Source: Escherichia coli
Lineage (GTDB): Bacteria > Pseudomonadota > Gammaproteobacteria > Enterobacterales > Enterobacteriaceae
Strand: one strand, 5' to 3'
DNA: 64,000 nucleotides
NCBI RefSeq assembly: GCF_048403405.1
Contig: NZ_CP183129.1
Each line of letters opens with the position of its first letter. Position 1 is the first letter of the stretch. Position numbers: made by a program. Below are positions 1 to 3,000 of the stretch, in pieces.

Positions 1-3000
1 AATGTTGCTCTGGATAAAATCATAAACAAGATGCCAGAAGCACAAGCCGACTTTAAACTGGTCGCTAATTGTGATGGTAACATAGGCAAGATTACGACAT
101 CGCTGGCAGGGAATCCTTCAGTAGAGTTACCCTATTTAATTTCTCCATTAACTTCAGATAATTCATCCACCACAGAATATATTGCTATGGGGATTAAACT
201 TCGAAATGCCTCTGACACTGAATTTATTCCCCCAGATGGTTCTAAAAAGATTTCCTGGGGAGAGGGATTAACAAAACCGGAACTTGAGATGACGGTAGCA
301 CTTCGCGAAACCCGACCAGGTTCAGGAAGAGCAGGTAATTTTAAAGCACTTGCGACATTCAATTTCACCTACGAATAAAAGGATAATAATAATGCAGATG
401 AAATCATTACATTATGGGATATTTGCAAGCATTACTCTGAGCTTATTATTATTCAGCACGTTTTCTATAGCCATCACGGATAACATTGGCCTAAACGTTA
501 TGACCACTGTTGAAAACAGAACTTGTCAAAGCGAAATCAGCAACCAGGGGTTGGTTAACCTTGGCACTGTTGGAGTGGGATATTTTGCCAGTAATGTTAG
601 TGCGGAAGATAATTATCCAGGCGGAAAGACCTTTACTGTGACAGTAAAAGATTGCCCCTCCGCTGGCACAACATCAAGCCAGTTGCATATAGAATTTAAA
701 CCTGTCAGTGGTGTAATGGCCACTGGTAGCCAACAGATATTCGCCAATAATCATGTCGGCGGTGCACAAAATGTAGGAATCGTGATTTTTAGCCAAAATA
801 ATCAGTCATCGGACACAGTGAATGTGCTGTCACCAACAGGGCAGTTTCGCACAGTCTGGCCAGTTGCCTCTGCAAACATGAATAATTCATCGTGGCAATT
901 TTATACACGAATGCAAAAAATTGATCCGTTACTTCCCGTTGGTGCAGGATTTGTCACCAGCAATGTATTAGTTGATATTTATTATCAATAAATGCCAGAC
1001 ATAACGCATCTACAAATATTATTTTTTCAAAGGAGTGATAAGATGAAGTCAGCGTTCCAATACTTTCTTTTTTTATGGATTATCACAGCCAGCATTAATA
1101 ATGTAAATGCTGAAAATCTTACTTTTATGGTCGGTGACGATGCTGGCGTAGGAAACCTTAATGGCCCATCAGGCGATAAACTAATATCATTTTCCTATCC
1201 GGTTGGTGGAGTAAACAATATTGTATTTTATAATCCAACATCCACCACACCGACCAATGCAAAAATAAAATTATATTGGAGTGAACTGGACACATCAAGT
1301 AGCCGTGGGTTTGTATATTGTACTTCAAAAAATAATTCCAGCGGTATGCCAATTACTGTCCGGCATAACATGGTTGACTCAGGAAAAATGGCAGATGGGC
1401 ACAGATTATATGAAACTAATGTAACCGGTCTATATTATACGTTAATGCTCAATAGATTCTGGTCGTATGAACTTCGCTCAAGCTCTCCAGATATATACGT
1501 TGGAGACGATGGCTGGCACACTGTACAATTTTCTATTACGGGTGATTATATACGAGGTCAATGTAATACTTCCAGGTATCAAGCAGTCGGAGGTCTTTTG
1601 CACGATGCCACGGTGGAATTCTATACCGACAGCAGTTTTAACCCTGCTCCAAATACTAACGTGCAATTAAAACATACTGGTGATTATTTGTATTCATTCG
1701 CAAATGAAGGGCCAGGGGTTCCAAATGTAAGTGCATCTAAGATGCTAAAAATTGATTTTAATTTAACAGACATCAATATCCAACTGCCAACATGCTTTAC
1801 GTCTATCCTTTTGGGTGAGAGCGTAACGCGATCAACCGTAAATCTCGGGGAATATACTGTTGGACAGATCACCTCAGATTCTGCAACACCTGTTAATTTT
1901 CAGATCTCGCTGCAAAATTGTGTTCGTATAAGCAGTATTAAAACAAAACTAAAATCTAATGTAGTAGGAGTGAATAATCCTCTGTTGCTTGGTAATACTT
2001 TGACAGGAACCGATGATGCAAAAGGTGCCGGAGTACTTATTGAAGGGTTACCCAACAGCAAAAATTCACAAAATTTCACGCTTAAGCCAAATGATGAGAC
2101 ATCAAGCTATAACGATGCTGAAGATGATCCTGGAGAAAACAATGGAATTTATAACCCAGATTATCCTAATGCCAACGGTCGTACTACAACCCAGGACCTG
2201 AAATTTCAGGCAACATTAAAACGCGATGGTAATGCAACTGTGAAACCCGGCGGATTTAAGGCTACCAGTACATTCCAGGTCACCTACGAGTAACAGGTTT
2301 AACCGCACCGCCATCATCTGGCGGTGCTGTAATTGATAAATCATTGCCCCCACCAATGTGACTGATAAAATGCCAGACAGCACGACATTACTTATCAGGA
2401 TACGTTATGAAACCAACCACTATTGCTTCATTGCAAAAATGCAAACAAGAAAAAAAACGTTTCGCGACCATCACCGCTTACGACTATAGCTTCGCAAAAC
2501 TGTTTGCCGATGAAGGGCTTAACGTCATGCTGGTTGGCGATTCACTGGGCATGACGGTTCAGGGGCATGACTCCACTCTGCCAGTTACCGTTGCCGATAT
2601 CGCCTACCACACTGCTGCTGTACGTCGCGGTGCGCCAAACTGTCTGCTGCTGGCTGATCTGCCGTTTATGGCGTATGCCACACCAGAACAAGCCTTTGAA
2701 AACGCCGCGACTGTCATGCGTGCCGGTGCCAACATGGTCAAAATTGAGGGCGGTGAGTGGCTGGTAGAAACCGTACAAATGCTGACCGAACGTGCCGTTC
2801 CTGTTTGTGGTCACTTAGGTTTAACCCCACAGTCAGTGAATATTTTCGGTGGCTACAAAGTCCAGGGGCGCGGCGATGAAGCGGCCGATCGACTGCTCAG
2901 CGATGCATTAGCTTTAGAAGCTGCTGGGGCACAACTGCTGGTACTGGAGTGCGTGCCGGTTGAACTGGCAAAACGTATTACCGAAGCACTGGCGATCCCG

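What the first reader, a model, noticed from the sequence alone, without database searches (positions are those of the whole stretch)
1..2293. Tail of the yad chaperone-usher fimbrial operon with intact adhesin-like yadC
yadL (partial), yadK and yadC have intact frames and signal peptides. yadC is long enough (about 416 aa) to have a two-domain adhesin architecture. These fimbriae are usually silent in the laboratory, and their allele is strain-variable and relevant to host colonisation.
Basis: partly seen in the sequence, partly recalled or inferred. Interest (0 to 1): 0.3.

Follow-up and report, generated by a model that had tools for sequence, protein, structure and literature searches.

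The report
Six-gene Yad fimbrial operon tail
This is the end of a known E. coli adhesive-fimbria operon (Yad), in a very divergent form seen in phylogroup D strains, where two minor-subunit genes have fused into one and the intact tip adhesin has a highly variable binding domain; a modest variation on a well-studied system.

Summary
The three reading frames are real and intact, and sit at the yad locus between folK and panB. [quoted passage not shown] Its closest structural matches are FimH, LpfD and CupB6. It is only 47-51% identical to other YadC types.

Two labels are wrong:
- The gene cut by the window edge is the yadM orthologue (56% identity, E 1e-65), not yadL.
- "yadK" is a hybrid. Codons 1-45 (signal peptide and donor strand) are YadL-like. 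Codons 46-199 are YadK-like.

The operon therefore has six genes, not seven. This allele occurs at 99% identity or more in about 8% of complete E. coli genomes. Carriers include 042 (phylogroup D), an ST405 strain (phylogroup D) and an ST38 strain. Its usher is 74.9% identical to HtrE of EC958, below the 80% cut-off a 2026 survey used when it scored phylogroup D as largely Yad-negative.

Against a 94.5%-identical sub-variant, the hybrid gene has dN/dS 0.04, the YadC lectin domain 0.90, and the YadC pilin domain no amino-acid changes.

Verdict: a known kind of system in a divergent six-gene variant I found no description of. Interest is low to moderate.

The parts
1..378 (+). 3' part (125 codons plus stop) of the yadM-type (StaD-like) minor pilin gene. 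The first 61 codons, including the signal peptide, lie outside the window.
   Evidence: The full gene is L001 8818-9378 in the 100%-identical genome. It is 56% identical to K-12 YadM (E 1e-65) but matches YadL only at E 0.001. Pfam PF00419 E 5e-15. Best NCBIfam hit is StaD, the same as for K-12 YadM. The C-terminal motif FKALATFNFTYE is readable in the sequence.
392..991 (+). Hybrid minor pilin gene (199 aa): YadL signal peptide and donor strand fused to the YadK/StaF pilin body. AAGGA lies 8 nt upstream of the ATG.
   Evidence: NF011794 (the YadK-type equivalog) scores 257 bits against a cut-off of 132. RefSeq WP_001178095.1 is identical in TUM14771 and 042. dN/dS is 0.04 against the GF43 sub-variant.
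392..526 (+). yadL-derived segment of the hybrid (codons 1-45): predicted signal peptide (residues 1-27) and N-terminal extension/donor strand ITDNIGLNVMTTVENRT, up to the conserved Cys45.
   Evidence: 38-53% identical to five YadL alleles (47-53% to four of them, 38% to VTB). In residues 27-45 the figure is 63-68%. Identity to YadK alleles is 16-28%. All other YadK/StaF-type proteins retrieved have the ...AGQDIDLVANVKNSTC N-terminus.
527..991 (+). yadK-derived segment of the hybrid (codons 46-199): the Ig-like pilin body with C-terminal strand VLVDIYYQ.
   Evidence: 56-61% identical to five YadK alleles and 15-17% to YadL alleles. The DNA alignment to K-12 places a gap of about 620 bp at window position ~512.
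1043..2293 (+). yadC-type two-domain fimbrial tip adhesin gene (416 aa plus stop), intact. AGGAG at 1031-1035.
   Evidence: NF007268 'fimbrial-like adhesin' scores 743 bits against a cut-off of 382, aligned 1-416 to model positions 1-412 of 412. 47% identical to K-12 YadC. AF2 pLDDT 84.7. Fold matches. RefSeq WP_000833492.1.
1043..1111 (+). Predicted YadC signal peptide (residues 1-23, MKSAFQYFLFLWIITASINNVNA).
   Evidence: Read from the sequence: K2, a hydrophobic core and V-N-A before E24. In the AF2 model residues 2-18 form a lone helix followed by a segment with pLDDT below 50. No signal-peptide predictor was run.
1112..1777 (+). YadC N-terminal receptor-binding (lectin-like) domain, about residues 24-245. 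This is the most variable part of the region.
1778..2290 (+). YadC C-terminal pilin domain, about residues 246-416. It anchors the adhesin to the next subunit.
2305..2327 (+). GC-rich hairpin (9-bp stem GCACCGCCA/TGGCGGTGC, 5-nt loop) 12 nt after the yadC stop. It is a possible transcript end or stabiliser, with no T-run.
   Evidence: The centroid fold is -18.2 kcal/mol, and the 61-nt context has z = -3.4 against shuffles. The consensus terminator scan did not call it because it has no T tail.

Best explanation
Window 1-2293 is the distal, tip-encoding end of a chaperone-usher fimbrial operon of the Yad/Sta family. It is the very divergent allele found in the phylogroup D strains checked.

The complete operon is seen in identical genomes. 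It runs: major pilin (YadN-type), chaperone, usher (HtrE-type), YadM-type minor pilin, a YadL/YadK hybrid minor pilin, and the YadC-type adhesin.

Inferred mechanism, from the established chaperone-usher pathway:
1. Subunits are exported by Sec.
2. The periplasmic chaperone caps each subunit.
3. Subunits are polymerised at the usher by donor-strand exchange, tip first.

YadC would lead. Its variable N-terminal lectin-like domain binds the receptor. Its C-terminal pilin domain accepts the donor strand of the next subunit.

The hybrid arose by an in-frame deletion of about 620 bp between the paralogous yadL and yadK genes, at the conserved Thr-Cys that ends the donor strand. It therefore carries the whole YadL donor strand on the whole YadK body. 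The tip fibre has one fewer kind of subunit.

The hybrid is under purifying selection, so it is used. The lectin domain evolves fast, which suggests changing receptor specificity.

The AT-rich operon is probably H-NS-silenced in the laboratory, like other yad alleles. The promoter lies outside the window.

Shown: gene identities, hybrid structure, fold, distribution and selection pattern. Inferred: assembly, subunit order, receptor and regulation.
For: Locus and family:
- Synteny is folK-[operon]-panB-panC-rpnC-panD, as in K-12.
- The usher scores 1588 bits on NF007337 (cut-off 830). The chaperone scores 402 on NF007398 (cut-off 285).
- The YadK-type and YadC-type equivalogs are exceeded.

Gene identities:
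- YadM 56% identical.
- YadK body 55%.
- YadC 47%.

Hybrid:
- Segment identities switch at residue 45.
- The DNA alignment shows a gap of about 620 bp against K-12 at window position ~512.
- Five other yad types all have seven genes including yadL.
- The GF43 sub-variant and strain 042 share the six-gene form.
- No other YadK-type protein among 5.8 billion has a YadL-type N-terminus.

Selection against GF43:
- Hybrid: dN/dS 0.04 (18 synonymous, 3 nonsynonymous differences).
- Usher 0.09.
- YadC lectin domain 0.90 (17 synonymous, 55 nonsynonymous).
- YadC pilin domain: 0 nonsynonymous, 6 synonymous.

Two-domain adhesin fold.

Distribution:
- 444 genomes carry the full-length allele. 460 of 5426 have any match, and 456 of those are at 99% identity or more.
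- Carriers: 042 (phylogroup D in PMC3559732 Table 1), WCHEC96200 (ST405, phylogroup D; PMC5762679) and 28Eco12 (ST38; PMC6963479).

Composition and function:
- GC is 37-42%, against 52-56% in panBC. This fits the H-NS repression shown for yad in PMC13245861.
- Functional roles of other YadC alleles are reported: xylose and annexin A2 binding, and bladder and bloodstream colonisation (PMC6921372, PMC13245861).
Against: - There are no expression or assembly data for this allele.
- The operon promoter, chaperone and usher lie outside the window.
- The AF2 model of the hybrid pilin was poor (pLDDT 54.9). The claim that the junction falls at the donor-strand/body boundary therefore rests on sequence alignment and on general knowledge of FimA/FimG-type pilins.
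- If subunit order mirrors type 1 pili (C-K-L-M-N), the hybrid's YadL donor strand would not be the cognate partner of the YadC groove. Assembly might then need co-adapted interfaces.
- dN/dS comes from a single pair of sequences.
- The phylogroup D link rests on two carriers documented as phylogroup D (042, WCHEC96200), one ST38 carrier and a matching frequency. It is not a typed census.
Confidence: 0.82

Rival explanations
1. Decaying cryptic locus. The yadL-yadK fusion is a deletion scar that broke tip assembly, and the operon is an H-NS-silenced relic on its way to becoming a pseudogene.
For: - yad operons are silent in laboratory culture (PMC3559732, PMC13245861).
- yadC is frameshifted or truncated in some strains of other types: UM146 and VTB96933v.
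- About 16 of the 460 carriers have only partial matches.
- The hybrid lacks the YadK donor strand and the YadL groove, which could disrupt cognate subunit pairing (inference).
Against: - All six genes are intact in TUM14771, 042 and GF43.
- The hybrid shows dN/dS 0.04, with 18 synonymous against 3 nonsynonymous changes since the split from GF43. The usher, chaperone and major pilin show 0.05-0.09.
- The deletion is exactly in frame, at a boundary between the donor strand and the body.
- 456 genomes keep the allele at 99% identity or more.
Confidence: 0.1
2. Xenologous replacement. The whole cassette was imported fairly recently from another species or genus by recombination in the conserved flanks, rather than being an old E. 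coli allele kept by selection.
For: - The divergence has sharp edges. Flanks are 94% identical or more, and the block from the end of folK to the end of yadC is 45-80% identical.
- GC is low.
- This type is an outlier to all other Escherichia types. Its usher is 74-75% identical to them, while they are 86-98% identical to each other. Its YadC is 48-51% identical to the four intact types compared.
Against: - No closer relative was found in any other taxon among 5.8 billion proteins. After the E. coli clusters at 99% and 84-87%, the best full-length hits are 50% or less, and E. fergusonii, Citrobacter, Kluyvera and Salmonella are no closer.
- The locus and gene order are the same as in other yad types.
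- All yad alleles are AT-rich.
- Adjacent folK has elevated synonymous divergence (dS 0.32). This fits long-standing linked polymorphism.
Confidence: 0.2
3. One reading: a canonical K-12-like operon tail of yadL (partial), yadK and yadC.
For: The position upstream of panB and the gene sizes resemble K-12.
Against: - The partial gene matches YadM at E 1e-65 and YadL only at E 0.001.
- The usher gene directly precedes it in the identical genome.
- No separate yadL gene exists.
Confidence: 0.02

Closest known systems
Yad fimbriae of E. coli K-12, CFT073 and EC958 (yadN-yadV/ecpD-htrE-yadM-yadL-yadK-yadC)
   Same: - Same chromosomal locus (folK to panB) and same gene order.
- Usher, chaperone, YadK-type and YadC-type proteins all pass NCBIfam equivalog cut-offs.
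- Two-domain YadC whose lectin domain is more variable than its pilin domain, as reported for other alleles (PMC13245861).
- AT-rich composition.
   Different: - Six genes instead of seven, with yadL and yadK fused into one hybrid gene.
- Protein identities are only 75% (usher), 74-79% (chaperone, major pilin), 53-57% (YadM) and 47-51% (YadC).
- The usher is 74.9% identical to HtrE of EC958. That is below the 80% cut-off used to define 'Yad-positive' in PMC13245861.
- Receptor specificity is untested.
Salmonella Sta fimbriae (staA-G), the Salmonella counterpart of Yad
   Same: - Wurpel et al. place Sta and Yad together by usher phylogeny and locus position (PMC3559732).
- The window's partial pilin hits the StaD model best.
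- Public sources name relatives of the hybrid's body 'StaF'.
   Different: - All scores against Sta models fall below their equivalog cut-offs.
- Sta has separate StaE (YadL-type) and StaF (YadK-type) families, so the fused state here is derived.
- The Salmonella adhesin is only about 31-33% identical.
Type 1 fimbrial tip (FimH-FimG-FimF) and other two-domain chaperone-usher adhesins (LpfD, FocH, CupB6)
   Same: - Best structural matches over the full length of the YadC model (Foldseek E 8e-10 to 1e-7).
- The working model is the same: a lectin domain plus a donor-strand-accepting pilin domain.
   Different: - Sequence identity is only 11-22%.
- The lectin domain is larger, about 220 aa against about 160 in FimH.
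- There is no evidence for mannose binding.
Receptor-binding domains of AtfE (P. mirabilis), UclD/F17-like adhesins, GafD, MrkD and Abp1D
   Different: Identity is 8-12%, and no binding-site residues could be mapped. This is fold-level resemblance only.

Membership tests
Yad/Sta chaperone-usher fimbrial operon | Chromosomal position between folK and panB | tested here: met
   The 100%-identical genome and strain 042 show folK-[six genes]-panB-panC-rpnC-panD, as in K-12. In the window, panB starts at 2407.
Yad/Sta chaperone-usher fimbrial operon | HtrE-type usher and YadV/EcpD-type chaperone | tested here: met
   NF007337 scores 1588 bits against a cut-off of 830. NF007398 scores 402 against 285. 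Both genes lie outside the window and were taken from the identical genome L001.
Yad/Sta chaperone-usher fimbrial operon | YadC-type terminal adhesin gene | tested here: met
   NF007268 scores 743 bits against a cut-off of 382, full length. 47% identical to K-12 YadC across the whole protein.
Yad/Sta chaperone-usher fimbrial operon | Three separate minor pilin genes: yadM, yadL and yadK | tested here: not met
   Only two genes lie between the usher and the adhesin. yadL survives only as codons 1-45 of the hybrid.
Yad/Sta chaperone-usher fimbrial operon | Operational definition of Ellison et al. 2026: usher at least 80% identical to HtrE of EC958 over at least 80% of its length | tested here: not met
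   Global amino-acid identity is 74.9% to WP_000153158.1. That accession is the HtrE of both U12A and EC958. The threshold is quoted from PMC13245861. Their tBLASTn value was not recomputed.
Yad/Sta chaperone-usher fimbrial operon | Binding of D-xylose or annexin A2 by YadC | not testable with these tools
   Reported for K-12 and CFT073 alleles (PMC6921372, PMC13245861). The lectin domain here is only about 42% identical to other types.
Yad/Sta chaperone-usher fimbrial operon | H-NS repression and laboratory silence | not testable with these tools
   Only indirect evidence: GC is 37-42% against 52-56% in the flanks. The promoter is outside the window.
Two-domain chaperone-usher tip adhesin (FimH-like architecture) | C-terminal pilin domain with an incomplete Ig fold and a conserved C-terminal strand | tested here: met
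Two-domain chaperone-usher tip adhesin (FimH-like architecture) | N-terminal beta-sandwich receptor-binding domain in place of a donor strand | tested here: met
Two-domain chaperone-usher tip adhesin (FimH-like architecture) | Demonstrated receptor binding | not testable with these tools

The most novel reading that the evidence does not exclude
The YadL-donor-strand/YadK-body hybrid is a natural splice at the functional boundary of a pilin, and it is kept under purifying selection. If it is incorporated, it constrains the unknown order and specificity of Yad tip assembly. One possibility is that the hybrid bridges YadC and YadM seamlessly, which would imply an order C-L-K-M-N rather than the reverse-gene-order C-K-L-M-N. 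The other is that it is self-complementary (YadL strand into YadK groove) and forms a homopolymeric tip fibrillum like PapE. Together with a lectin domain only about 42% identical to studied alleles, the strains carrying this allele, such as 042 and the ST405 and ST38 isolates checked, would then carry a structurally and functionally distinct Yad fimbria that a recent survey scored as absent.
Probability: 0.3. Interest if true: 0.45.

Novelty: new variant of a known kind. Interest (0 to 1): 0.25.

Why it matters
Yad fimbriae contribute to bladder and bloodstream colonisation by extraintestinal E. coli (PMC6921372, PMC13245861). YadC and its ligand xylose have been proposed as anti-adhesion targets.

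This analysis makes three points:
- The phylogroup D strains checked (042, an ST405 isolate) and an ST38 isolate are not Yad-less. They carry an intact but very divergent six-gene version that an 80% usher-identity filter misses. Prevalence figures and adhesin-typing schemes may need a lower threshold or a second reference.
- Its lectin domain is so different that results on xylose or annexin A2 binding cannot be assumed to transfer.
- The fused minor subunit is a ready-made natural experiment on donor-strand specificity.

None of this changes the picture of how chaperone-usher fimbriae work.

Tried and rejected
- AF2 of the hybrid pilin, using a mixed YadK/YadL alignment (A2), gave pLDDT 54.9 with residues 1-62 below 50. 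I drew no structural conclusion and ran no fold search on it.
- The consensus terminator scan found nothing after yadC. The hairpin at 2305-2327 folds well but has no T-run, so I call it only a possible transcript end.
- The promoter-like hits inside the genes (14 found against 8.2 expected) are what AT-rich DNA gives. I do not interpret them.
- The PDB sequence-profile search found only pilin-domain relatives and no solved YadC lectin domain.
- The alternative 433-aa yadC start at 992 was rejected. It has no ribosome-binding site, it would bury the signal peptide, and the NCBIfam model aligns from residue 1 of the 416-aa form.
- UMN026 (NC_011751.1) is not in the genome collection. I used strain 042 instead.
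- A literature search for yadK/yadL/yadM with phylogroup D found no description of the fusion. Absence from that library does not prove it is unpublished.
- I considered that the hybrid might be ancestral, with yadL and yadK arising from it by duplication. I rejected this because the YadL body is only 15-17% identical to the hybrid body while the YadL N-terminus is 38-53% identical (47-53% for four of five alleles), and because Sta-type operons have separate StaE and StaF families.
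Full report
**What is at the coordinates**

Window 1-2293 carries three co-oriented reading frames on the + strand:
- A frame open from base 1 to a stop at 376-378.
- A 199-codon gene at 392-991, with AAGGA 8 nt upstream.
- A 416-codon gene at 1043-2293, with AGGAG at 1031-1035.

panB follows at 2407, then panC, rpnC (- strand) and panD.

All three products match Pfam PF00419 (Fimbrial) at E 5e-15, 1e-10 and 7e-12. The second and third exceed curated NCBIfam equivalog cut-offs. The second scores 257 bits on NF011794 against a cut-off of 132. The third scores 743 bits on NF007268 'fimbrial-like adhesin' against 382, aligned end to end.

The 433-codon alternative start at 992 has no ribosome-binding site and would bury the signal peptide, so 1043 is the start.

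**Locus and complete operon**

The segment is 100% identical to E. coli TUM14771 (NZ_CP128875). There the operon lies between folK and panB and has six genes:
1. major pilin
2. chaperone
3. usher
4. a 186-aa pilin
5. the 199-aa pilin
6. the 416-aa adhesin

K-12 has seven at the same place: yadN, yadV, htrE, yadM, yadL, yadK and yadC. Four further yad types also have seven: UM146, M3, U12A (whose Yad proteins carry the same accessions as EC958's) and VTB96933v. A sub-variant with 94.5% DNA identity (GF43) and the phylogroup D reference strain 042 share the six-gene layout.

The usher and chaperone of this type pass the HtrE-type and YadV-type equivalog cut-offs, at 1588 against 830 and 402 against 285. 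It is therefore a Yad-family operon.

**The gene names need correcting**

The gene cut by the window edge is 56% identical to K-12 YadM over its full length (E 1e-65). It matches YadL only at E 0.001. It also directly follows the usher gene. It is the yadM orthologue. Its first 61 codons, including the signal peptide, are outside the window.

The middle gene is a hybrid:

| Residues | Identity to five YadL alleles | Identity to five YadK alleles |
|---|---|---|
| 1-45 | 38-53% (47-53% for four of five) | 16-28% |
| 27-45 (roughly the mature N-terminal extension) | 63-68% | 16-26% |
| 46-199 | 15-17% | 56-61% |

A DNA alignment to K-12 puts a single gap of about 620 bp at window position ~512, inside this gene. 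Among 5.8 billion proteins, only this allele's own cluster combines a YadL-type N-terminus with a YadK body. Every other YadK/StaF-type protein inspected starts ...AGQDIDLVANVKNSTC.

The YadL body is unrelated to the hybrid body while the YadL N-terminus is related. Sta-type operons also have separate StaE and StaF families. The hybrid is therefore derived, by an in-frame deletion between the two paralogues.

The junction is the conserved Thr-Cys. In FimA/FimG-type pilins this motif ends the N-terminal donor strand and begins the Ig-like body (established knowledge, not tested here). The hybrid thus carries the complete YadL donor strand on the complete YadK body.

**The adhesin**

YadC here has these features:
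- A readable signal peptide: MKSAFQYFLFLWIITASINNVNA|E.
- Pfam recognises only residues 264-416 as a pilin domain.
- A PDB profile search finds only FimA/FimF-type relatives for that part.

An AlphaFold2 model built on 24 homologues has mean pLDDT 84.7 and shows two all-beta domains.

Foldseek's best PDB matches are full-length two-domain tip adhesins. These are FimH, LpfD, FocH and CupB6, at E 8e-10 to 1e-7.

The two-domain adhesin reading is supported.

**Variability**

Megablast finds the whole 2.4-kb segment in 444 of 5426 complete genomes. Of the 460 genomes with any match to the yadK*/yadC part, 456 are at 99% identity or more. Every other genome matches only the last ~200 bases or less, next to panB.

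At protein level this type is an outlier to all others:

| Protein | Identity of this type to other types | Notes |
|---|---|---|
| Usher | 74-75% | Other types are 86-98% identical to each other |
| Major pilin | 76-80% | |
| Chaperone | 74-79% | |
| YadM | 53-57% | |
| YadC | 48-51% | To the four intact types compared |
| PanB (flank) | 98-99.6% | |

The divergent block has sharp edges, at the end of folK and the end of yadC.

Within YadC, the lectin domain averages 42% identity to other Escherichia types and the pilin domain 58%.

No closer relative exists outside E. coli. After E. coli clusters at 99% and 84-87%, all full-length hits are 50% or less. This includes E. fergusonii, cryptic Escherichia, Citrobacter, Kluyvera and Salmonella.

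**Is it in use?**

A Nei-Gojobori comparison with GF43 gives these values:

| Gene or domain | dN/dS | Synonymous / nonsynonymous differences |
|---|---|---|
| Hybrid pilin | 0.04 | 18 / 3 |
| Major pilin, chaperone, usher | 0.05-0.09 | |
| YadC pilin domain | 0 | 6 / 0 |
| YadC lectin domain | 0.90 | 17 / 55 |

The hybrid has been conserved since it formed. The receptor-binding domain has changed fast. This argues against a decaying relic, though it rests on one sequence pair.

**Who carries it, and a consequence for the literature**

Carriers include:
- Strain 042, listed as phylogroup D in PMC3559732. Its hybrid protein has the same accession, WP_001178095.1.
- WCHEC96200, ST405 and phylogroup D (PMC5762679).
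- 28Eco12, ST38 (PMC6963479).

Wurpel et al. counted Yad as a core-associated fimbria, intact in 94% of their strains (PMC3559732).

Ellison et al. 2026 defined Yad-positive as an usher at least 80% identical to HtrE of EC958 over at least 80% of its length. On that basis they reported only 5.2% of phylogroup D as positive (PMC13245861). The usher of this allele is 74.9% identical to that exact protein.

My inference is that the reported near-absence in phylogroup D largely reflects the threshold. It does not reflect loss of the operon. This needs a typed census to confirm.

**How it most likely works**

By the established chaperone-usher mechanism (general knowledge):
1. Subunits cross the inner membrane through Sec.
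2. The chaperone stabilises each subunit by donor-strand complementation.
3. The usher polymerises subunits tip first by donor-strand exchange.

Here YadC would lead. Its pilin-domain groove is completed by the next subunit's N-terminal strand. The hybrid and YadM form the tip or adaptor section, and the YadN-type pilin forms the shaft.

The fusion removes the YadK donor strand and the YadL groove. If the fibre order is C-L-K-M-N, the hybrid is a seamless replacement for the L-K pair. If the order is the reverse-gene-order C-K-L-M-N, as in type 1 and P pili, the hybrid would be self-complementary and interfaces to YadC and YadM must have co-adapted. I could not discriminate between these.

The low GC (37-42% against 52-56% in panBC) fits the H-NS repression shown for other yad alleles (PMC13245861). 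The promoter is outside the window.

A stable hairpin at 2305-2327 follows the yadC stop. It lacks a T-run.

**Comparison with what is known, and verdict**

This is a member of the Yad/Sta kind by locus, gene order and four equivalog models. It fails two tests: separate yadL and yadK genes, and the 80% usher-identity operational definition.

YadC's two-domain architecture, the greater variability of its lectin domain and H-NS silencing are all published for other alleles (PMC13245861). Receptors are published for CFT073 and K-12 alleles (PMC6921372).

What I add is the corrected gene identities, the six-gene architecture with a hybrid subunit under constraint, and the link to the strains scored Yad-negative. 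I found no description of the fusion in the searchable literature, which does not prove it is unpublished. Interest is low to moderate.

Noticed in passing
window 4430-5362 (- strand), repeat at 4526-4607: rpnC (310 aa) contains a 12-bp tandem repeat of 6.8 copies. It encodes QEV/QEG-type repeats just before the C-terminal tail. rpnC length differs between strains, from 885 to 957 nt in the loci examined. This looks like repeat-driven length polymorphism.
   Followed up: partly
window 4146-4361 (- strand): A 71-aa ORF (RefSeq WP_000404121.1, 'hypothetical protein') lies between rpnC and panC. It is 59% identical to the C-terminal 68 residues of RpnC (E 2e-21) and has its own 12-bp repeat at 4274-4306. 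It looks like a duplicated RpnC tail. It is absent in K-12 and present in EC958, 042 and VTB96933v.
   Followed up: partly
L001 5433-5478 (outside the window; the chaperone gene of the same operon): The RefSeq start of the Yad chaperone in TUM14771 (228 aa) leaves it without a signal peptide. An in-frame TTG 45 nt upstream gives MLNKKNIVALCVASSMAFSMPVMA|DIV. Strain 042 is annotated with a longer, 244-aa form. This is probably a start-codon annotation issue rather than a defect.
   Followed up: partly
L001 3940-4419 (folK, outside the window): folK, next to the yad promoter region, is unusually diverged between strains: 89-93% amino-acid identity among most pairs compared (K-12 and VTB96933v are 98%), and dS 0.32 between two strains of the same yad type. 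PanB on the other side is 98-99.6% identical to the window's copy. This may be linked divergence next to a long-standing polymorphic cassette.
   Followed up: no
window 46878-46967 (- strand): Rfam RF02797 'PssrA' (plasmid-encoded Shigella sRNA A) matches at 105 bits. The match lies exactly over the chromosomal ftsA-ftsZ junction and ftsZ leader (ftsZ 45735-46886, ftsA 46947-48209). The family name is misleading for this site.
   Followed up: partly
window 29182-29295 (+), 41162-41231 (-), 40569-40646 (-): Rfam gathering-level matches to tp2, STnc40 and naRNA4 (CssrE). These are expected small-RNA or repeat-derived families in this core region and were not examined.
   Followed up: no
L003 6829-8092 (UM146) and L006 6849-8090 (VTB96933v): yadC is annotated as frameshifted in UM146 and as N-terminally incomplete in VTB96933v. 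Adhesin inactivation therefore occurs in other yad types, unlike the intact gene in this window.
   Followed up: no
L002-L006 yadK and neighbouring genes: Identity matrices suggest recombination breakpoints inside yadK. K-12 and M3 are 98-100% identical from yadN to yadL (100% YadN, 98.4% YadV, 98.0% usher, 98.9% YadM, 97.5% YadL) but 83% in YadK and 66% in YadC. K-12 and VTB96933v are 91% identical in YadC and share an identical YadK C-terminal stretch.
   Followed up: no
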